Shown piece after piece: positions 18,576-41,100 of a DNA stretch of 64,000 nucleotides (its first letter is position 1; every line of letters starts with the position of its first letter). The stretch comes from a bacterium (GTDB lineage Bacteria; Actinomycetota; Acidimicrobiia; Spongiisociales; UBA5794). Made by a program: the position numbers and the translations under genes. The stretch is taken from contig JAAETI010000243.1 of NCBI GenBank assembly GCA_024228555.1, positions 24,528 to 88,527 of the forward strand, given 5' to 3'. The notes under the pieces were generated by a model. The model worked only from the letters and a program-made list of their open reading frames with translations. It was not told where the DNA came from and ran no database searches.

Positions 18576-20327
18576 ATGGGCGATGACGCAAACAAAACGA
18601 GCATTGGCTCGGGGAGTGGAGTTGCGCGCGAACTCGACCTCGTCGGTGGTCGTCGCGAGTTTCGCATCGCCGGCGTCACCATTGCAGGACGGCGGCGCCG
18701 TCCTTCGGGAGAAGCTGCTCCCTTGCCGAGGAACCTGCACCGTGCCGGCCAACTGTGGTTGCTGTCCGGTCTGATGATGGTGGTCATTTGGATTTCACTC
18801 TTCTTGATCCCGACATCGACCGAGTGGTGGTCCGTCCAGGACCACAAGCTTCTGACCCGACTCGTCGACATTCGCACTGACGCTCTCACGACGGTGGCGA
18901 AGGCGTTCAATTCGCTTACCTCGGAGTTGTTCATCCGAGTGCTGCGTGTCGTGACTGTTCTTTCCCTGATCTTTGTGAAGAGATGGCGCCACTTTTTTGC
19001 AGTCCTGATCACGCTCGCTATCACTCAGGGAACGGGCGAACTCGTGCAGGATTGGGTGGGGCGTCCCAGACCGTTGGTGCCGATCCTGGTGGACTGGAAG
19101 GGTGCCTCACATCCTTCTCTGCCGGTCGGTGGGCTGGCGGTGACCTTCGGAGTCATGGCCTATTCGCTGCTGCCCGCGAGCCGGTGGCGGCGGGGCGTCC
19201 TTGCCGGATCCGGAGTGCTGATGTTCGTCATTGCATTGTCACGGATCTACCTGGGTGTTGATCATCCGTCCGACGCCTGGGTCTCGCTCCTTTTTGCTCC
19301 CGCCGTGGCTGTTGTGGTATTCCGGTTGTTCGCCCCCGAAGCGGTGTTCCCAGTGTCATGGAGGCGAGGAGTCACGGCCCACCTAGATGTCTCGGGGCGT
19401 CGCGGTGATGCGATCCGCAAGGCGGTGCGGGATCAGCTGGGCATCGAGGTCGTTGGGATAGAACTCTTTGGTGCGGAAGGGTCAGGGGGGTCGACACCGA
19501 TTCGGCTCGAGCTTGCCCCCGATGACACGCATGGCGAGGACTATCTCTTTGGCAAGCTGTATAGCCAGACTCACCTCAGATCCGACCGTTGGTACAAGGT
19601 AGGCCGCACCATTCTCTATGGAGCTCTTGAAGACGAGATGCGGTTCAGCTCTGTGCGCAGACTCGTTGAGTACGAGGACTACATCCAACGCCTGATGCGA
19701 GACTGTGGTATTCCTTCGGCCGAGCCATTCGGGATCGTGGAGATCACCCCAGATCGCGAATATCTGATGATCAGCCAGTTCTTGTTCGGTTCCGAAGAGC
19801 TAACCGATGCGGAAGTCGATGTTGACCTCATCGACGACGCTCTTGGTGTCATCAGGCAGATGTGGGATGCCGGCCTGGCCCACCGCGACATCAAGCCGGC
19901 CAACGTCATGGTGCGCGACAACAAGGTGGTGCTCATCGATGTCGCGTTCGGTACAGTCCGGCCTTCCCCGTGGCGGCAGGCGGTTGACCTGGCCAACATG
20001 ATGGTGATTCTGGCACTGCGCTCCAACGCAGAGCTTGTCTACGAGAGGGCTCTCCTGCAATTCGATCCATACGACATCGCCGAGGCCTTTGCGGCCACAC
20101 GAAGCGTCACTTTGCCCTCCCAATCGCGTAGCTCGCTCGCCCTGTTCAAGCGCGAGCATGGTGTCGACATCGTGGAGGAGTTCCGCAGGTTGGCTCCCGA
20201 AGCAGAGCCCATTTCCATCCAGCGCTGGAGTGCCCGTCGCATCGGACTCACTTTGGTGGCAGCGGCTCTTGCCATAGTCATCCTCGGCACGATCGTGTCT
20301 GAGGTGTCTGGGCAGGGATTGCTGTGA
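18576..20327 (+). CDS. membrane PAP2 phosphatase fused to a protein/lipid-kinase-like domain
   Basis: N-terminal TM region with PAP2 motifs (VGRPRP, SHPS, SRIYLGVDHPSDA). The C-terminal half has a catalytic loop HRDIKPANVMV and LIDVAFG. GGAGGAGAG Shine-Dalgarno before the ATG at 18576. Confidence 0.7.
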   Translation: MGDDANKTSIGSGSGVARELDLVGGRREFRIAGVTIAGRRRRPSGEAAPLPRNLHRAGQLWLLSGLMMVVIWISLFLIPTSTEWWSVQDHKLLTRLVDIRTDALTTVAKAFNSLTSELFIRVLRVVTVLSLIFVKRWRHFFAVLITLAITQGTGELVQDWVGRPRPLVPILVDWKGASHPSLPVGGLAVTFGVMAYSLLPASRWRRGVLAGSGVLMFVIALSRIYLGVDHPSDAWVSLLFAPAVAVVVFRLFAPEAVFPVSWRRGVTAHLDVSGRRGDAIRKAVRDQLGIEVVGIELFGAEGSGGSTPIRLELAPDDTHGEDYLFGKLYSQTHLRSDRWYKVGRTILYGALEDEMRFSSVRRLVEYEDYIQRLMRDCGIPSAEPFGIVEITPDREYLMISQFLFGSEELTDAEVDVDLIDDALGVIRQMWDAGLAHRDIKPANVMVRDNKVVLIDVAFGTVRPSPWRQAVDLANMMVILALRSNAELVYERALLQFDPYDIAEAFAATRSVTLPSQSRSSLALFKREHGVDIVEEFRRLAPEAEPISIQRWSARRIGLTLVAAALAIVILGTIVSEVSGQGLL

Positions 20328-21187
20328 GCAGACCTCTTGTCACCATCGTTGCTGCTCTAGTGCTGCTGAGTGCGGGCTGTGGGAGGCTTGGTCTCGGCCT
20401 ACCGGCTTGTGACACTCCACCCGGCGATCCAAGCACCGCCTCGGTCATCACGGCGCAGGCGGTGCCACGAGCCGACTACGCACCCTGTCTCAACTCGCTG
20501 AAGCTGGGTTGGGATGAGGTCGAGTTCGAAGTCGAGAGCAACCTGATGATCCTTGAGTTTGGCCGTACCCGCGAATTCGAGTTCCAGTCCTTCCTCGAGG
20601 TTCGGCTTACCCCGTCGTGCGACGTGGGTGATGCAGTTCCCGTGCCAAGTGGCATGGATGACGTCGAGCGCTTTGACAACATCGACCAGGTGGTGGCGGG
20701 AATAGGAGTAACAATCATTCCCGACGGGGAACGCCCGCGGATCTTTGCGCAGAGTCTGGTCGATGACCTAGGAGGCGTACGTGTCGAGGGTCGGCAGGTG
20801 AGCTTCACAGTTGACACTGACATCGACTTCTCGGTGCGGTCTCGAGTGAACAAGGCATTGTTCACCGATGAATTCGTGTGGATTATCAACGACCTTGATA
20901 TTGACGAGGGAACGCTCGAGTTGCGGAGCACGCCCGATGGCGAGGGCGCACGCGGGCTCGAGGTCGACGAAGCGTTGGATCTAATGGAAGACACGACACC
21001 TGAGGTGAGATACCAGGGCCAATGGTTCTACGTCTTCAATGGCGGGTGCATCACCTACGACTTCGATGCAGAAGGCACGCTTGCCACGACCATCGAGCAG
21101 GACGCCGTCGAGACGATCGGGTTCTATCCCAACGCAGAATTGCGTGAGGCGGGACTGCAAGCCGGCTACGACCTGGTTGGCGAGTAG
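20324..21187 (+). CDS. secreted lipoprotein, unknown function
   Basis: Signal peptide with lipobox (LLSAGCG). Its ATGA start overlaps the upstream gene. Confidence 0.55.
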   Translation: MSRPLVTIVAALVLLSAGCGRLGLGLPACDTPPGDPSTASVITAQAVPRADYAPCLNSLKLGWDEVEFEVESNLMILEFGRTREFEFQSFLEVRLTPSCDVGDAVPVPSGMDDVERFDNIDQVVAGIGVTIIPDGERPRIFAQSLVDDLGGVRVEGRQVSFTVDTDIDFSVRSRVNKALFTDEFVWIINDLDIDEGTLELRSTPDGEGARGLEVDEALDLMEDTTPEVRYQGQWFYVFNGGCITYDFDAEGTLATTIEQDAVETIGFYPNAELREAGLQAGYDLVGE

Positions 21188-21193
21188 GTTGCG

Positions 21194-21910
21194 ATGATGA
21201 CGAATCCCGTGGAGCCCGCCAACTCCGAACATCATGGTATCGAGCACCTGATCCTCGACGATCATCGTTGGGCGGAGCGGATTGCGATTCTGTTGTGGGC
21301 CATCGCGGGGCTTTCCTTTGTCGCAATGGCGGTTCCGGCGACGCGGGACGTCCTCGATTCCTTCGACACCTGGTTCTATGAGCTCACCTATCCCATCAAG
21401 TGGGGTCCGCTGACCGCGGTCTCGCATGCCTTGGCCTTTTTGGGAAGCGCATGGTTCGTTTGGCCTCTGCGGCTGGTCGTCAGCGTCATTCTCTACGGCA
21501 AGAAGAGATGGCTGGCGCTTGCGGCATGGATCATCCCAATCCTCCTATCGGAGCCTCTGATAGGGACGCTCAAGGCGGCATACGATCGCCCCCGTCCTCC
21601 CGAGAGTCTGGTCGAGGTTGCATCCGGGGCATTTCCGTCAGGTCACGCCGTGGCTGGTGCGGTGGTTGCGATATCGCTTGTCATCGTGTTGGTGCCTGCT
21701 GGGGCAACCAGACGCAACTTGGAGATGGTGGCAGCGGACTTCGCAATTCTGATGGCCGGCAGCCGGGTCTACCTTGGTGCGCACTGGCTCACCGACGTGT
21801 TCGGGGGAGTGGCGTTGGGGGCTGCATGTGCCATCGGTGGTGCCGCGATTGCACAACGATGGTTTCGCTACCGCGGACTGGGCGATCGATCCCCGACCGA
21901 AGTCACGTAG
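21194..21910 (+). CDS. PAP2-family membrane phosphatase
   Basis: PAP2 motifs RPRPPE, PSGHA and SRVYLGAHWLTD, with multiple TM helices. Confidence 0.75.
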   Translation: MMTNPVEPANSEHHGIEHLILDDHRWAERIAILLWAIAGLSFVAMAVPATRDVLDSFDTWFYELTYPIKWGPLTAVSHALAFLGSAWFVWPLRLVVSVILYGKKRWLALAAWIIPILLSEPLIGTLKAAYDRPRPPESLVEVASGAFPSGHAVAGAVVAISLVIVLVPAGATRRNLEMVAADFAILMAGSRVYLGAHWLTDVFGGVALGAACAIGGAAIAQRWFRYRGLGDRSPTEVT

Positions 21911-23001
21911 GCGTCGCCCGCCAACTCTGCTCTCTGCGTCTCGCTTATCCGCCAGGTGCGATTGCGTTGCCAGATCACGTAGGAGGCGGCGCCAAGGGGG
22001 ATGGGCAACACGTAGGTGATGGCTCGGAACACGAGGATGGCGGCAACGACTTGCGCCTTGGTGGCTTCATCCAGATCAATGGTCAGTGCTGCGGCGTAGC
22101 CAAGCTCAACTATCCCGACACCCCCCGGAGTGATCGGGAGTGCAGAGATCAAACGCACGAAAGAGAAGGCGGCAAGCACCTGGATCCATGAAAGCTCACT
22201 CTGGCTGACCCCGGTGTGCCGCAATGTGATCAACAACACCGCATACAAGGAGAGATGGCTGACCAGGGTGGCCAGGGTCAGGTGAAGCCAGCGGTGTTGG
22301 AGGAGGCCGATTGTGTTGGTGCGGAAGGCGGCGGCGCGGTCGCTCCAACCCGAGACCGGCCCACGCCGCACGATCTTGCGCAGCTTGGTCGTGAATCTCT
22401 CCAGCGCAGTACCAACGGAGCGGGCCAGTCGGTCGCTCTTGAGGATCATCCAGAGGCCCGCGGCCACCCCGACTAGGGCGGCGAGTCCAACCCCGGATGC
22501 CGTGATCCATGCGCTCGATACGTCGCTTTCGATCGCCAGGAGACCGAGGGCGATAACCGGCATTCCGAGTTTCACGAAGTTGTTCCAGATGCCGGTAACT
22601 ACGGCGGAGCGGGTGATGTCGGCAACCTTGAAACCCCATGAAGTCAGCATGGCGAGGGTGACGCCTACTCCGATTGCTCCGCCACCGGGCAGCGTGTTGG
22701 AAACTGCTGTGGAGGACTGGTTGACAACCGCTGCTTCACGGAGACGTAGCCCGGGCAGTGCGGCAACCAGCACGAACCAGTAGGTGGCCAGGTTCCAAAA
22801 CGCGACCAATGCCAGAGATGTGGATTCGAGCCAGGTGAGGGTCCGAATGGTGGCCCACACTTCGTCGTAGTCGGCGATTTGGGGCATGACACCGACAAAG
22901 ATCCCGACGACGACCACAACAGAGATCAGCGACTGGACTACTCGTTTCCACCGCGACTGTGAGGTTGTCTCGGAGGGATCGACGGTGGCTTTGTCTGACA
23001 C
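21868..23001 (-). CDS. lysylphosphatidylglycerol-synthase-TM / flippase-like membrane protein (UPF0104 family)
   Basis: 377-aa polytopic protein whose conserved ITPGGVGIVE segment is typical of the LPG_synthase_TM family. GTG start with GAGG 9 nt upstream. Confidence 0.65.
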   Translation of the reverse strand: MSDKATVDPSETTSQSRWKRVVQSLISVVVVVGIFVGVMPQIADYDEVWATIRTLTWLESTSLALVAFWNLATYWFVLVAALPGLRLREAAVVNQSSTAVSNTLPGGGAIGVGVTLAMLTSWGFKVADITRSAVVTGIWNNFVKLGMPVIALGLLAIESDVSSAWITASGVGLAALVGVAAGLWMILKSDRLARSVGTALERFTTKLRKIVRRGPVSGWSDRAAAFRTNTIGLLQHRWLHLTLATLVSHLSLYAVLLITLRHTGVSQSELSWIQVLAAFSFVRLISALPITPGGVGIVELGYAAALTIDLDEATKAQVVAAILVFRAITYVLPIPLGAASYVIWQRNRTWRISETQRAELAGDAYVTSVGDRSPSPR

Positions 23002-23126
23002 GATCAGAACCTCAGAATGGATCTCCGCTTGCGAGATTACACGGTGTCCACCGGCCGACCTTCAGCAGTGGTGAGAACGGTCGCGAAACAAAACGCAAAG
23101 CCGCGAAATCAAGTAACCATTTTCGC

Positions 23127-23156
23127 TTGACCAGAGTGATTAGTCTGGCCTATCTT
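23127..23156 (+). promoter_or_regulatory. candidate sigma-A type promoter (TTGACC-N18-TATCTT)
   Basis: -35 at 23127-23132 and -10 at 23151-23156, in the divergent intergenic region. Confidence 0.4.
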
Positions 23157-23162
23157 GATCTT

Positions 23163-23435
23163 GTCGTTGAGGCGGGAGACCGCAGCAGCGGCGCCGGGGT
23201 CCCGCAAGGGGTCACGGAGATCCGGAAGGGACATCGGCCCGCAAGGGAAGGTGGCCGCCCCGCAAGGGAAGTCCGGGGACGAGCCCCAGTGGTTCGACCC
23301 CACGGACCTAGAAAGATCGGCCGGCCGAAGCCTCGGTTTCGGACGGTATCTCAGTTGAGTCGAAAGGCTCCGACTGAGAAGGAAAACCCCGAGAGGGTCG
23401 AAGCTTCGGCTGAAACTCCCTCGGGGTTTCTCCAT
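23163..23435 (+). ncRNA. candidate structured small RNA (about 270 nt), family unassigned
   Basis: Bounded by the promoter above and a strong terminator. Contains three CCCGCAAGGG(G/A)A GNRA hairpins (23201, 23238, 23259), a GGGG-ACGAG-CCCC hairpin, a T-loop-like GUGG-UUCGACC-CCAC, and a 6-bp CTCAGT/ACTGAG helix. No ORF. Confidence 0.4.
23387..23435 (+). terminator. compound intrinsic terminator, near-copy of the module at 17838-17885
   Basis: CCCCGAGAGGG - AGC-UUCG-GCU - AAACTCCCTCGGGG followed by TTTCTCCATTTCC. It also reads as a terminator on the minus strand. Confidence 0.6.
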
Positions 23436-23577
23436 TTCCGGACCGACAACCCACCCCCTCCAGGAACGAACGTGCGTACCCGGCCGCGCATATGTCGCGA
23501 CGATGTACGCAAGAACGGTCGGTGCCCGTAGTTGTACGGTATGCGGATGTTGGGGCAAGACAGCGTAAGATTGTCGT

Positions 23578-24210
23578 ATGTCATTTCCAGATAGCATCCT
23601 CACCGACGGCGAGACCATTGTCCGACAGTTCCGACCCCACTGGAGGATGCTGGCCATCCCCGCACTGTGGTTGATCGCGGCTATTGCATCGATCTTCATC
23701 GTATTCCAGGTCATTGAGGCTGAAGGATGGGTTGCTCTCGTCCTCATCGTGCTGATCTTGGCGTCTCTTGTCCCTCTGGTGGTCAGCCCGGTCATCAGAT
23801 GGATGTTCACTATTTACCTCCTCACCAGCGAGCGGCTGATCACCCGAAGTGGGATGATTGCACGCTCCGGCATCGAGTTGCCCTTGGAGAACATCAATAA
23901 CGTTCTGTTCAACCAGAGTGTCATCGAGAGGATGCTCAAGTCTGGCGATCTGCTCATCGAGTCGGCTGGGGAGAGCGGTCAGAGTGAATTCACCGACATC
24001 CCGAACCCGGAAGAGTTCCAATCGTTGCTGTATCGGACCCGTGAAGAGCAGGGCCGCAATACTGCCGCCGAGGAATCAGCGATCGCTGCCGATGTCAGCC
24101 GTGACCCGACGGAGCAACTCGAGCGGGCCGCTCGACTTCGTGACGAAGGCGTGCTCTCGGAAGACGAGTTCGCAGAGATGAAACGCAAGATTCTCGGCGT
24201 TGGCGAGTAG
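23578..24210 (+). CDS. membrane protein with bacterial PH (bPH_2/YdbS-like) domain and C-terminal SHOCT domain
   Basis: Two TM helices after a conserved N-terminal segment, and a C-terminal LRDEGVLSEDEFAEMKRKILG SHOCT-type motif. Confidence 0.6.
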   Translation: MSFPDSILTDGETIVRQFRPHWRMLAIPALWLIAAIASIFIVFQVIEAEGWVALVLIVLILASLVPLVVSPVIRWMFTIYLLTSERLITRSGMIARSGIELPLENINNVLFNQSVIERMLKSGDLLIESAGESGQSEFTDIPNPEEFQSLLYRTREEQGRNTAAEESAIAADVSRDPTEQLERAARLRDEGVLSEDEFAEMKRKILGVGE

Positions 24211-38116: not shown

Positions 38117-41100
38117 GTGTTTCTCAAGACCCTATCTCTCGCCGGATTCAAGTCCTTTGCGGACCGGACGCGCCTCGACTTCGAGGCTGGCGTCAATGTC
38201 GTCGTTGGGCCAAATGGGTCAGGTAAATCGAACCTCCTAGACGCCCTTGCTTGGGTGATGGGTACCCAAGCCACCCGGGCGTTGCGTACCGAGAAGATGG
38301 AGGATGTCATCTTTGCCGGCACTGCGACCCGACCTGCGTTGGGGCGTGCCGAGGTGACCGTCACTTTTGATAACTCGGATGAATTCCTGCCGATTGGGCT
38401 CAACGAAGTGCGTATGACCCGGCGTCTGTTCCGGGACGGAAGCTCAGAATACGAGCTGAACGGAGCACCGTGTCGCCTCATGGACCTGCACGAGTTGCTT
38501 TCGGACGGTGGTGTGGGCAGGAGCCAGCACGTTCTGGTGGGGCAGGGCCAGATCGGGTCGATTCTCAATGCCCGTCCTAACGAACACCGGGCGGTAATCG
38601 AAGAAGCAGCCGGTGTGACCAAGCACAAGAGCAGGCGCGACCGATCCGTGCGGCGCCTCGAGCAGACCGAAATCGACTTGTCGCGACTCAACGACATCCT
38701 TGATCAGCAACGGTCCCGGCTCCGACCTCTGAAGAGGCAGGCAAACGCTGCCGCCAGACACGGTTCGGTCAGAGAAGAGATCAGGGCACTCCACCTTTGG
38801 TTGGGTGGCGAGAAGCTGCGTGTCTTGCGCGAACGCCAGCACAATGCGTCGACCGAGCATCAGGCATTGACCGGTCACGTCGCCAAGGACGGCGGAGAAC
38901 TCGATGCGCTCAACCTCCAGCTAAACACTCTGCGCGACGAGGCCGGCGATGTTGGCACCGCACTGGAACGTGATACTTCGGCCGTCGCCCGTCTGGAGAC
39001 AGTTGCAGAACGCTTCCAGCGGATTGGGCTCGTTGCGAGGGAACGGCGCTTCTCCCTCGAGAGCCGACAGCGGGGGGCAGGCGAGCGCCGGGCCGACCTG
39101 GAGCTCGAACTTGCCGAACTGGAACAAGAGATTGCTGCTGCCCGTGCCGCCGAGACCTCAGCGACCGAGCTGACCGATCGGCGCGAGACAGTTCTGCGGC
39201 AACTCGAGGATGAGGAGCGATCACTCGCCGAGCAGACCCAGTTACCCGCCGAAGGTGTGGTAGCCAACTTGCGCGGCGACCTGCGGTCCCTGGAGAACGC
39301 GGCCGAGCGTGACGCAAAGGAGTCCGAGGCCTTGACCAGGAGGCGCGAGCTCATCACGGAGCGTCTCGCTGAAGAAGAGGGCGATGCCGCCACTCTGATT
39401 GGGGCCCTCCAAGAGACCGACGCTGCGGTCACCGGGGCCCAGCCCGCATACACGGCCGCAGGCGATGCGGCGGCTGTTGCTCGCGAAACGACCGACCGGG
39501 CGGACGTTGAGCTGAGGGACAAGCAGATAGCGGTGGCAGGAGCCAAAGCTCGCATTGAAGCCCTCGAATCAGCGCTTTCCGGACTAATCGATCCGGTTGC
39601 TCTGGAGCGGGCGGGTAGTGCCGACGGGGTCGTTGGTGCGCTGGTGAGCCGGCTCGATGTGCCGGCGGAACTTGCAGTCGCAGTTGACGGAGCGCTCGGC
39701 GAGTGGCGCGATGCATTTGTTGTCTCCAGCAGGACCGCGCTGCAGAGCGTGACCACAGCTATGAAGTCTGACGGCCTTGGTGGCGTCGGATTTGTTGCGG
39801 TCGATTCGAACGGAGTCTCAGACGCACGGGCGGTAGCAGCCGAGTGGGGTGTGGAGGCACTCATCGACCGGCTTGGTGAGAACGCAGATCAAGGAATTGC
39901 CTCCAGGTTGCTGGGTGACGTCGTCGTTGCGGAGGGATGGTCATCAGCTTGGGGCATAGTGTCCCGCCACCCCGAGGTGCGAGCGGTGACACCGGAAGGC
40001 GATGTGATTACTGCTGCCGGCATGCGATTGGCGCAACCGGATGGTGCCGGTCCCGCTGCTCTGGAAGCCGCAGGCGTCGCCCTGGAGCAAGCCGAGATCG
40101 ACCTGGCCCGAGCTGAGACGCTGCGGACGACCGCGGAACGAGAATTCGCAGTGTTGCGGGACCACGAACGGTTAGCCCTCGAGGCGCTCGAAACGCTCGA
40201 AGCGCGGCTCGCCGGACAAACCGAGGCGTTGGCTCTCACGGAGCGGGCGCGTGCGGTCAGTCATGAGGAATTGGAGCGGATCGATGCCAGAGCAAGCGGC
40301 ATTGCTGCTGCAGTCACCGGTCGTCAGGAAAGGCTCGGCGAGCTACGCACTCGTATCGCGGAGTTCGAGGGTGAAGAGAAGTCCCGTCAAGAGGCGTGGG
40401 AAGCGCTGAACCGGCGCCGTGACGAGGTGGCGCGTCGTCGCGATGAGGCGCGGCGGCTTCGTGAAGAGGTAGTTGCACAGCTTGCTTCCGTAGCTGAGCG
40501 GCGGCGGCTGCTCGAGAATCGTTGTGAGACCGCTAAAACCGACTTGGTTGCCGTTGACGACAGTCCGATTGACCCTGCGATGATCGAGCGTCTGGAGCGA
40601 ATCGAGGGTGATGCCAAGCGGGCGTTGCACGTAGTCCGCTCGCACATTGGTACGCTGCGAGAGCGCCAGTTGGCGTTGCGCAGCGAGATGGGCGAAGCCG
40701 ACGAGCGGCTTGCCGAGGCGTATGGGCGGCAGACAGAGCTCGAGACGGGGCTCTCGGCCGCAAAGGAACGCATCTCCACTCTTGCCATCGAGCTCGCCGA
40801 GATTGCCGTTCGTGACGAAGCTGTTGCCGAGGGTCTGCGGCGTGATGCCGACGTCACCGAAGAGATGGCGCTTGCCGCAACCCAGCCGGAAATCGACGAG
40901 GACACCAAACCCGAGGATCGTCTCCAGACTCTCGAAGCGCAGTTGCGGCGTATGGGCCCGATCAACCCGTTGGCCGCTCAGGAGTACGAGGAGCTTGCTG
41001 CTGGTGTGGAATTGCTCGAAGGGCAACTCGGCGACCTCGAGGAGTCACGAGCGGAGCTCCGCAAGGTGATCAAGGCTCTTGATGCCGAGATGGCGACCCT

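What the first reader, a model, noticed from the sequence alone, without database searches (positions are those of the whole stretch)
23120..23445. Candidate ~270-nt small structured RNA with three ccc(GCAA)ggg hairpins, in the divergent region upstream of the PH-SHOCT gene
In the 576-nt gap between the divergently transcribed genes 21868..23001 (minus) and 23578..24210 (plus) there is a good sigma-A-like promoter (TTGACC-N18-TATCTT, 23127-23156) and, 230 nt downstream, a strong intrinsic terminator (23387-23435). The terminator ends 140 nt before the next start codon. The bounded segment has no ORF and is dense in canonical RNA motifs:
- three near-identical CCCGCAAGGG(G/A)A units (23201, 23238, 23259), which are GNRA tetraloops on 3-bp G:C stems;
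- GGGG-ACGAG-CCCC;
- a T-loop-like GUGG-UUCGACC-CCAC;
- a 6-bp CTCAGT/ACTGAG helix enclosing AGUCG-N8-CGACU;
- an AGC-UUCG-GCU hairpin nested in the terminator.
A segment GGGAAGUCCGGGG superficially resembles the RNase P P4 strand (GGAAAGUCCGGGC), but the rest of RNase P is absent (no ACAGAAC...CCGGCUUA). It is either an independent sRNA or a terminator-attenuator leader for the downstream membrane-protein gene.
Basis: seen in the sequence. Interest (0 to 1): 0.6.

Follow-up and report, generated by a model that had tools for sequence, protein, structure and literature searches.

The report
New modular small RNA family, Acidimicrobiia
The flagged segment is very probably a real, stand-alone gene for a highly folded RNA of about 270 nt. 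It belongs to an apparently undescribed RNA family of uncultured Acidimicrobiia whose members share the same promoter boxes and an almost invariant 3' hairpin; what they do is unknown.

Summary
Window 23163-23436 (+) lies between a conserved sigma-A-type promoter and a -30 kcal/mol 3' hairpin, and folds into nine helices. Covariation supports them: 94% paired, 63 of 88 pairs with compensatory changes in 32 homologues, 0 of 500 shuffles as good. It is not coding and matches no Rfam 15 family. It is not a leader. The downstream PH-SHOCT gene has its own TANNNT box 12-13 nt before the ATG in 45 of 47 loci, so it is read as leaderless, and relatives of the RNA occur in unrelated gene contexts. The RNA belongs to a modular family. 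The promoter has tandem CGCGAAA boxes, the proximal one exactly 18 nt upstream of -35 in 104 of 105 promoters. The body is a variable array of GNRA/UUCG hairpins, giving RNAs of about 145 to 850 nt. The 3' hairpin, CCCCGAGAGGG...CUCGGGG, is nearly invariant. A second member of about 800 nt lies at 17077-17885, under a spurious ORF. The most likely function is a stable trans-acting RNA that binds a protein; this is inferred, not shown. There are no expression data.

The parts
23082..23108 (+). Two direct CGCGAAA boxes (23082-23088 and 23102-23108), 20 bp apart; presumed binding site of a transcription factor
   Evidence: The proximal box is exactly 18 nt upstream of -35 in 104 of 105 distinct family promoters. 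A second box lies 20 nt further upstream in more than 90% of them. Conservation is visible. Binding by a factor is inferred.
23127..23156 (+). Sigma-A-type promoter: -35 TTGACC (23127-23132), 18-nt spacer, -10 TATCTT (23151-23156). The predicted start is about 23163.
   Evidence: Promoter scan. TTG and TAnnnT are invariant in homologues while the spacer varies. The start site is inferred from the spacing and from where RNA conservation begins.
23163..23436 (+). The RNA itself ('RNA-A', about 270 nt)
   Evidence: Covariance-model hit of 309.7 bits at 23159-23440. 94.3% of pairs are kept in 32 homologues and 63 of 88 pairs have compensatory changes. No coding signal. No Rfam family.
23163..23192 (+). 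P1: 5'-terminal hairpin with an internal loop and a GAGA tetraloop
   Evidence: Helix 1: 10 of 11 pairs have changes on both sides. Coordinates.
23198..23213 (+).
   Evidence: Helix 3: 6 of 6 pairs have changes on both sides.
23219..23318 (+). P3: long-range helix GAUCC/(G)GAUC closing a junction that holds P4, P5 and P6
   Evidence: Helix 4: A-U changes to G-C at the second pair in 9 sequences. Coordinates.
23232..23253 (+). P4: hairpin with a GCAA loop (second GNRA unit)
   Evidence: Helix 5: 6 of 7 pairs have changes on both sides.
23259..23268 (+). P5: CCC-GCAA-GGG (third GNRA unit)
   Evidence: Helix 6: 98.8% paired.
23271..23307 (+). P6: nested hairpin GUCCGGGG-A-CGAGCC-CCAGU-GGUUCG-AC-CCC-A-CGGAC.
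Evidence: Helices 7 and 8 are 96-97% paired, and A-U changes to G-C at 176:254.
23320..23347 (+). P7: hairpin with a CUCG loop here and UUCG in most homologues
   Evidence: Helices 9 and 10: 6 of 7 inner pairs have changes on both sides.
23350..23378 (+). P8: CUCAGUUG-A-GUC-GAAA-GGC-UC-CGACUGAG hairpin
   Evidence: Helix 11: 8 of 11 pairs have changes on both sides.
23381..23436 (+). P9: the family's invariant 3' module, which is also the presumed intrinsic terminator. It consists of the CCCCGAGAGGG/CUCCCUCGGGG stem with a conserved G.U pair, GA-containing internal loops, an apical GC-UUCG-GC, and the tail UUUCUCC.
   Evidence: Seven stem pairs and the G.U pair are identical in 32 of 32 sequences while all other helices vary. 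Free energy is -30 kcal/mol. The pattern occurs twice in the window against about 0 expected. Conservation ends right after it.
23566..23580 (+). The PH-SHOCT gene's own -10 box (TAAGAT, 23566-23571) and its ATG (23578); read as a leaderless mRNA
   Evidence: TANNNT lies at -12/-13 from the ATG in 45 of 47 loci, with no Shine-Dalgarno sequence. The leaderless reading rests on established knowledge of actinobacterial leaderless transcripts.
16998..17885 (+). Second family member ('RNA-B', about 800 nt). Boxes at 16998 and 17018; -35 TTGACT at 17043-17048; -10 TACTTT at 17067-17072; RNA about 17077-17885, dense in UUCG hairpins; same 3' module at 17838-17881.
   Evidence: 41 bits; z = -5.4; conserved in L012 and L013 with hairpin-wise changes. 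The overlapping ORF 16967-17515 (-) has no Pfam hit. Its only tblastn matches are 53-58 aa fragments in four close relatives, which share the DNA anyway.

Best explanation

Every member is a cassette with three parts:
1. A promoter with two CGCGAAA boxes in direct repeat on the same helix face. The proximal box is fixed 18 nt upstream of a TTGAC -35 element, which suggests one shared activator.
2. A body that starts with a 5'-terminal hairpin and continues as a variable number of short G+C-rich hairpins capped by GNRA or UUCG tetraloops. This gives total lengths of about 145 to 850 nt.
3. A nearly invariant 3' hairpin followed by a short U tract, which ends the transcript.

Shown here: the conservation pattern, the covarying structure, the absence of coding signal, the separate promoter of the downstream gene, and the family's presence in several contexts.

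Inferred: the RNA acts in trans, is co-regulated with its paralogues, and works by binding a protein. The invariant 3' hairpin would be the specific handle and the hairpin array a scaffold or stabiliser. Base-pairing with mRNAs is less likely because almost all loops are closed tetraloops.

The confidence of 0.6 covers the whole statement. The claim 'independent structured ncRNA of a new family' alone is about 0.85. The protein-binding mechanism alone is about 0.35.
For: Promoter and limits of the unit:
- box-to-(-35) spacing is 18 nt in 104 of 105 promoters.
- Conservation drops right after the 3' hairpin.

Structure:
- RNAalifold on 16 MAFFT-aligned homologues gives 88 pairs, 20 with compensatory changes. 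On that alignment 97.4% of cells pair, 0 of 500 shuffles do as well, and slid controls pair at 36-56%.
- In 32 homologues 94.3% of cells pair and 63 of 88 pairs have changes on both sides, again with 0 of 500 shuffles as good.
- Fold z-score is -4.4 on the + strand and -1.3 on the - strand.

Not coding.

Not a leader:
- The PH-SHOCT gene has a -10 box at leaderless distance in 45 of 47 loci.
- RNA-B converges on the next gene.
- The ~150-nt members sit next to unrelated genes.

Family:
- The covariance model finds one or two copies in about 45 of 74 genome loci.
- 113 of 135 modules have the promoter signature upstream.

The 3' stem is invariant in 32 of 32 sequences while the other helices vary.

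Loops are mostly UUCG (329), GCAA (140), GAAA (129) and GAGA (91).
Against: - No expression data of any kind. The transcription start, the 3' end and the abundance are all inferred from sequence.
- The U tract is short, so termination efficiency is unknown.
- No partner protein or transcription factor was identified.
- RNA-A is immediately upstream of the PH-SHOCT gene wherever that locus could be seen. This holds even when the other neighbours changed, and it could reflect a local functional link that this explanation does not account for.
- The alignment used was fitted to the model's structure, which inflates the pairing counts. avoids that but covers only close relatives.
Confidence: 0.6

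Rival explanations
1. It is a cis-acting 5' leader (riboswitch or attenuator) of the PH-SHOCT membrane-protein gene. The 3' hairpin would be a regulated terminator, and read-through would switch the gene on.
For: - The RNA lies directly upstream of the PH-SHOCT gene, on the same strand, in nearly every locus. This holds at 35-45% protein identity and after a 4-gene insertion upstream.
- The U tract is weak, so some read-through is plausible.
Against: - The gene has its own TANNNT box 12-13 nt before the ATG in 45 of 47 loci and no Shine-Dalgarno sequence.
- The gap between hairpin and ATG is unconserved and varies from 37 to 329 nt.
- I saw no conserved alternative (antiterminator) pairing, but this was judged by eye only.
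- The same promoter and 3' hairpin frame RNAs that converge on the next gene or sit in unrelated contexts.
Confidence: 0.07
2. It is the functional counterpart in Acidimicrobiia of Ms1 or 6S RNA: an abundant RNA that binds RNA polymerase.
For: - It has a similar size (Ms1 is about 300 nt), its own sigma-A-type promoter and its own terminator, as described for Ms1 (PMC4191392).
- Ms1 searches did not cover Acidimicrobiia (PMC9130861).
- Rfam Ms1 gives a faint match to P6: 10.5 bits, E = 2.9.
- S. coelicolor Ms1 shares the 16-mer GGCCCCACGGACCGAG with the family consensus; 15 of the 16 bases match the window itself.
Against: - The Rfam score of 10.5 bits is far below the threshold of 162.
- The match of the family profile to S. 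coelicolor Ms1 scores -1.3 bits, and about 7 of 500 shuffles do as well.
- The consensus structure is a chain of hairpins with local 5' and 3' hairpins. It is not a rod with a central bubble.
- The flanking genes are not HAD-IB hydrolase and oxidoreductase.
- The family has several copies per genome and lengths from about 145 to 850 nt, unlike Ms1 or 6S.
Confidence: 0.1
3. It is a base-pairing regulatory sRNA whose conserved purine-rich single-stranded stretches (GGAAGG, GAGAAGGA) pair with target RNAs.
For: - Purine-rich motifs are strongly strand-biased in the family's bodies: GGAAGG occurs 125 times against 5 for its complement, and AGAAGG 44 times against 0.
- The stretch GAagGa before the 3' strand of P3 is conserved.
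Against: - Nearly all loops are closed GNRA or UUCG tetraloops, so little sequence is free to pair.
- Apart from the 3' hairpin, bodies share little primary sequence between classes.
- No target was sought or found.
Confidence: 0.12
4. It is not an RNA gene but a repeated DNA element, either a mobile or REP-like repeat or a protein-binding DNA site.
For: - The 3' hairpin sequence and the CGCGAAA boxes recur at several places per genome.
Against: - Position and orientation are syntenic across deep divergence.
- Changes keep RNA base pairs, including G-U pairs on one strand only.
- I saw no terminal inverted repeats, by eye only.
- In 2.9 million viral contigs there is one hit, and it is unrelated.
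Confidence: 0.03

Closest known systems
Ms1 RNA (Rfam RF02566; Mycobacterium, Streptomyces scr3559)
   Same: - An actinobacterial stand-alone RNA of about 300 nt with a sigma-A-type promoter and an intrinsic terminator (PMC4191392, PMC9130861).
- A faint local resemblance of its 5' hairpin to P6.
   Different: - The Rfam score is 10.5 bits against a threshold of 162.
- There is no rod with a central bubble.
- The flanking genes are different.
- This family has several copies per genome, variable length, promoter boxes and an invariant 3' hairpin, none of which is described for Ms1.
Csr/Rsm-type protein-sponge sRNAs (CsrB/C, RsmX/Y/Z)
   Same: From my own knowledge of that system:
- several paralogues per genome;
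- very different lengths built from a variable number of repeated hairpins;
- all driven by the same upstream activator site (the GacA box there, CGCGAAA boxes here);
- each ending in a terminator hairpin.
   Different: - The repeated hairpins here carry closed GNRA or UUCG loops, not GGA loops.
- There is no sequence similarity.
- Whether CsrA exists in these genomes was not tested.
- Here the conserved element is the 3' hairpin.
OLE RNA with its neighbouring oapA membrane-protein gene
   Same: A structured non-coding RNA kept immediately upstream of a gene for a small membrane protein of unknown function. In OLE, the protein binds the RNA (my own knowledge).
   Different: - No Rfam hit to OLE.
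- This RNA is much smaller.
- The PH-SHOCT protein is acidic, with no evident RNA-binding region.
- Paralogues occur away from that gene.
IMES-2 RNA motif (Rfam RF02035)
   Same: An environmental RNA motif. It gave a weak match over P8 and the 3' hairpin, including a CCGAGAGG element.
   Different: The score is 12.6 bits against a threshold of 54.7 (E = 1.4). In IMES-2 the CGAGAG element is a hairpin loop, not one arm of a long stem.

Membership tests
Ms1 RNA (RF02566) | Scores at or above the Rfam gathering threshold (162 bits) | tested here: not met
   10.5 bits, E = 2.9, covering model positions 10-58 only. The hit was absent in a second run with different limits.
Ms1 RNA (RF02566) | [quoted passage not shown] | tested here: not met
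   In the consensus structure the 5' and 3' ends each form a local hairpin, and the body is a junction plus serial hairpins.
Ms1 RNA (RF02566) | Flanked by a HAD-IB hydrolase gene and an oxidoreductase gene (PMC9130861) | tested here: not met
   The flanks are an LPG-synthase-like gene and the PH-SHOCT gene; ancestrally a lipoprotein gene and the AdnAB genes. The rest of the window was not screened for a HAD-IB gene.
Ms1 RNA (RF02566) | Binds RNA polymerase core | not testable with these tools
   Needs co-immunoprecipitation.
6S RNA (RF00013 and relatives) | Match to an Rfam model, and a rod shape with a central bubble | tested here: not met
   No 6S hit even at E up to 10. The structure is as described above.
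Riboswitch or terminator-attenuator leader | Forms the 5' untranslated region of the gene it controls | tested here: not met
   The downstream gene has its own -10 box at leaderless distance in 45 of 47 loci. Family members lie in unrelated or convergent contexts.
Riboswitch or terminator-attenuator leader | A conserved alternative pairing that competes with the terminator | tested here: inconclusive
   I saw no conserved complement of the CCCCGAGAGGG arm in alignments A3 and A6. This was by inspection only, with no dedicated search.
Bacterial RNase P RNA | Match to an Rfam model, and the conserved P4 partner strand | tested here: not met
   No hit. The GAAGUCCGGGG string pairs locally within P6.
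Csr/Rsm-type sponge RNA | Repeated GGA motifs exposed in hairpin loops | tested here: not met
   Loops are mostly UUCG, GCAA, GAAA and GAGA. GGA-containing strings occur mainly in linkers and stems.
Csr/Rsm-type sponge RNA | CsrA/RsmA protein encoded in the same genomes | not tested
   Only partial contigs were held, and no search for CsrA was run.
raiA, OLE, GOLLD, ROOL, HEARO and other large structured RNAs in Rfam | Match to the Rfam model | tested here: not met
   No hit at gathering score in the window or in 12 diverse loci. None is listed at E up to 10.

The most novel reading that the evidence does not exclude
The CGCGAAA-box promoter and the invariant 3' hairpin define an 'RNA regulon'. 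In this reading a set of co-induced, very stable hairpin-array RNAs of different sizes all present the same 3' handle to one dedicated RNA-binding protein, and so sequester or scaffold it. That would be a new RNA-protein regulatory system in a phylum where Hfq and ProQ are generally thought to be absent (my own knowledge; not tested here).
Probability: 0.25. Interest if true: 0.8.

Novelty: new variant of a known kind. Interest (0 to 1): 0.62.

Why it matters
- Post-transcriptional regulation in Actinomycetota is poorly understood, and nothing of this kind is on record for Acidimicrobiia, which are abundant in sediments and waters but rarely cultured.
- The family has a sharply defined promoter signature, a covarying structure and an invariant 3' hairpin. 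Each of these is directly testable: a DNA site to fish for the regulator, an RNA hairpin to fish for the partner protein, and a model to annotate genomes.
- It also removes a spurious 182-aa ORF call over the ~800-nt paralogue.

Tried and rejected
- **Rfam 15.** At gathering score there were no hits in the whole window or in 12 loci. In E-value mode on the region there was only noise: microRNA models on the hairpin, IMES-2 at 12.6 bits and Ms1 at 10.5 bits.
- **Ms1 homology.** I took the RACE-verified S. coelicolor Ms1 sequence from the supplement of PMC9130861. It shares a 16-mer with the family consensus, but the profile score is -1.3 bits and about 7 of 500 shuffles do as well. Rejected as evidence.
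- **RNase P, SRP and T-loop readings.** The 'GAAGUCCGGGG', 'UCCGGAAGG' and 'GGUUCGACC' strings are explained by local pairings that covary.
- **Coding potential.** Rejected.
- **Phage or mobile origin.** One unrelated hit in the viral contigs.
- **Third promoter-box match at 39482.** It lies inside a 1152-aa ORF and has no 3' module, so I treat it as chance.
- **Shared neighbours for the ~150-nt class.** None found.
- **Literature.** Two full-text searches for a structured RNA in Acidimicrobiia found only a mention of raiA.

Full report
**1. What is in the sequence**

Window 23120-23445 lies between the divergent genes 21868-23001 (-, LPG-synthase-like membrane protein) and 23578-24210 (+, bPH_2 plus SHOCT).
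- The promoter scan finds a single site in 22800-23800: TTGACC-N18-TATCTT at 23127-23156.
- The + strand of 23160-23440 folds to -143.5 kcal/mol, z = -4.4 against dinucleotide shuffles. The - strand gives z = -1.3.
- The 3' hairpin at 23381-23433 has a free energy of -30 kcal/mol, but its tail is only UUUCUCC. The consensus terminator scan did not call it on the + strand.
- ORFs of 190, 233 and 67 aa overlap the segment, so 'no ORF' is not literally true.

**2. Known families**

- Rfam 15 gives no match at gathering score anywhere in the 64-kb window, nor in 12 related loci.
- In E-value mode the region yields only noise: microRNA models on the long hairpin, IMES-2 at 12.6 bits (threshold 54.7) and Ms1 at 10.5 bits (threshold 162).

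**3. Homologues**

- The PH-SHOCT protein has hundreds of relatives. Where a source names them, they are Acidimicrobiia or unclassified MAGs.
- I fetched 74 genome loci through this protein.
- nhmmer and then a covariance model find the RNA directly upstream of that gene, on the same strand, in about 45 loci. Scores run from 310 bits down to about 50.
- Alignments show conservation beginning about 80 nt upstream of the predicted start. It is interrupted in the promoter spacer, continues through the RNA, and ends abruptly after the U tract.

**4. Structure**

RNAalifold on 16 MAFFT-aligned homologues predicts 88 pairs, 20 of them with compensatory changes.
- On that alignment 97.4% of cells pair. 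None of 500 column shuffles reaches the observed values, and sliding the partners drops pairing to 36-56%.
- On 32 homologues aligned to the model, 94.3% of cells pair and 63 of 88 pairs change on both sides. That alignment is fitted to the structure, so it leans towards it.

The helices, with coordinates:

| Helix | Window coordinates | Feature |
|---|---|---|
| P1 | 23163-23192 | 5'-terminal hairpin |
| P2 | 23198-23213 | GCAA loop |
| P3 | 23219-23223 with 23314-23318 | long-range helix closing a junction that holds P4, P5 and P6 |
| P4 | 23232-23253 | GCAA loop |
| P5 | 23259-23268 | GCAA loop |
| P6 | 23271-23307 | nested hairpin |
| P7 | 23320-23347 | CUCG loop here, UUCG in most homologues |
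| P8 | 23350-23378 | GAAA loop |
| P9 | 23381-23433 | 3' hairpin |

They compete with P6 and P8, which pair in 93-97%.

**5. Not coding**

- Substitution load is flat over the three codon positions (177/183/194).
- Most indels are 1 nt.
- No frame stays open in all homologues.

**6. Not a leader**

- In 45 of 47 loci the PH-SHOCT gene has a TANNNT hexamer 12-13 nt before its ATG and no Shine-Dalgarno sequence. In the window this is TAAGAT at 23566-23571.
- From established knowledge of actinobacterial leaderless mRNAs, this is the signature of a promoter that starts transcription at the start codon.
- The gap between the hairpin and the ATG is unconserved and ranges from 37 to 329 nt.

**7. 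A family, not a single locus**

The model also hits window 17578-17890 at 41 bits. Reading upstream shows the same promoter architecture: boxes at 16998 and 17018, TTGACT at 17043-17048 and TACTTT at 17067-17072.
- It is followed by about 800 nt dense in UUCG hairpins (z = -5.4).
- It ends in the same 3' hairpin.
- The RNA is conserved with hairpin-wise changes in L012 and L013.
- The 182-aa ORF called over it has no Pfam hit. Its only tblastn matches are 53-58 aa fragments in four close relatives, which share the DNA anyway.

The ancestral gene order is AdnB(-) AdnA(-) [RNA-B +] lipoprotein(-) [RNA-A +] PH-SHOCT(+). The window's clade has a 4-gene insertion between the lipoprotein gene and RNA-A.

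**8. Unbiased scan**

- Most hits lie in the same AdnAB to PH-SHOCT neighbourhood, often with two copies per locus.
- Over all loci, 113 of 135 3' modules have CGCGAAA-N-TTGNNN-N16-19-TANNNT upstream.
- Implied RNA lengths cluster at about 150, 225-330, 410, 490 and 560-850 nt. A few longer values probably reflect modules that my strict pattern missed.
- In 105 distinct promoters the box-to-(-35) spacing is 18 nt in 104. A second box lies 20 nt further upstream in more than 90%; in the window these are at 23082 and 23102.
- The ~150-nt class sits in unrelated contexts: thioesterase and ECF sigma genes in L085, and TetR, MMPL and luciferase-like genes in L119.

**9. What is conserved**

- Across 32 RNA-A homologues every helix varies except the core of the 3' hairpin. 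Seven pairs and one G.U pair are identical in all 32.
- Hairpin loops in the family are mainly UUCG, GCAA, GAAA and GAGA. Purine-rich strings such as GGAAGG are strongly strand-biased.

**10. Interpretation**

The promoter boxes, the 5'-terminal hairpin, the closed tetraloops and the invariant 3' hairpin point to a set of co-regulated, very stable RNAs that act in trans.
- The variable number of hairpins and the several paralogues behind one activator site recall the Csr/Rsm sponge RNAs. The loops are not GGA loops, however, and no partner protein is known.
- I therefore commit to a protein-binding RNA recognised through its 3' hairpin, at about 0.35. The claim 'independent structured RNA of a new family' stands at about 0.85.
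- The tight adjacency of RNA-A to the PH-SHOCT gene remains unexplained.

**11. Ms1**

- The RACE-verified S. coelicolor Ms1 sequence (supplement of PMC9130861) shares GGCCCCACGGACCGAG with the family consensus.
- The profile match scores -1.3 bits, and about 7 of 500 shuffles do as well.
- The structure, the flanking genes and the copy number differ from Ms1 (PMC4191392, PMC9130861).
- It is not a member. A similar function cannot be excluded without binding data.

**12. Limits**

- There are no expression data.
- Only partial contigs of uncultured organisms were available.
- The record titles of L001 and L014 name other phyla, although the loci are syntenic with the Acidimicrobiia ones.
- Promoter, start site and terminator are inferences from sequence and conservation.

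Noticed in passing
window 16998-17885 (+): A second non-coding RNA of about 800 nt has the same CGCGAAA-box promoter and the same 3' hairpin, and is dense in UUCG hairpins. The 182-aa ORF 16967-17515 (-) over it looks spurious.
   Followed up: partly
window 23566-23580, and the same position in 45 of 47 loci: The PH-SHOCT gene has a TANNNT box 12-13 nt before its ATG and no Shine-Dalgarno sequence, so it is probably a leaderless mRNA.
   Followed up: yes
window 18492-23001: Four genes (a PAP2-kinase-like fusion, an unknown ORF, PAP2, and an LPG-synthase-like gene) are inserted between the lipoprotein gene 17890-18591 and RNA-A. More distant Acidimicrobiia loci lack them.
   Followed up: partly
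L007 2033-2053 (alignment A2 columns 100-120): One homologue carries an extra 21-nt GNRA hairpin (GCAGAACCCCGAAAGGGGTTC) inserted after P1. This is an example of gain of a single hairpin module.
   Followed up: no
L083, L085, L101, L108, L110, L119, L173, L176, L180, L183 and others: A class of about 150 nt has the same promoter boxes and 3' hairpin but lies in unrelated gene contexts (ECF sigma and thioesterase; TetR, MMPL and luciferase-like).
   Followed up: partly
L084, L088, L092, L102, L141, L147, L151, L152: Two 3' modules lie only 460-550 nt apart on the same strand, so two family RNAs sit in tandem upstream of the PH-SHOCT gene in some lineages.
   Followed up: no
L001 and L014 record titles: The records are titled Gammaproteobacteria and Gemmatimonadales, but the loci are syntenic with, and 78-79% identical in PH-SHOCT protein to, the Acidimicrobiia loci. 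The MAGs are probably mis-binned or mis-labelled.
   Followed up: no
window 23388-23398 and 17839-17849: The 5' arm of the 3' hairpin (CCC-GAGA-GGG) could by itself form a mini GNRA hairpin of the same type as the CCC-GCAA-GGG units. Whether this alternative fold matters is unknown.
   Followed up: no
window 39482-39509: A third exact match to CGCGAAA-N18-TTG lies inside a 1152-aa ORF and has no 3' module downstream. I treat it as chance.
   Followed up: yes
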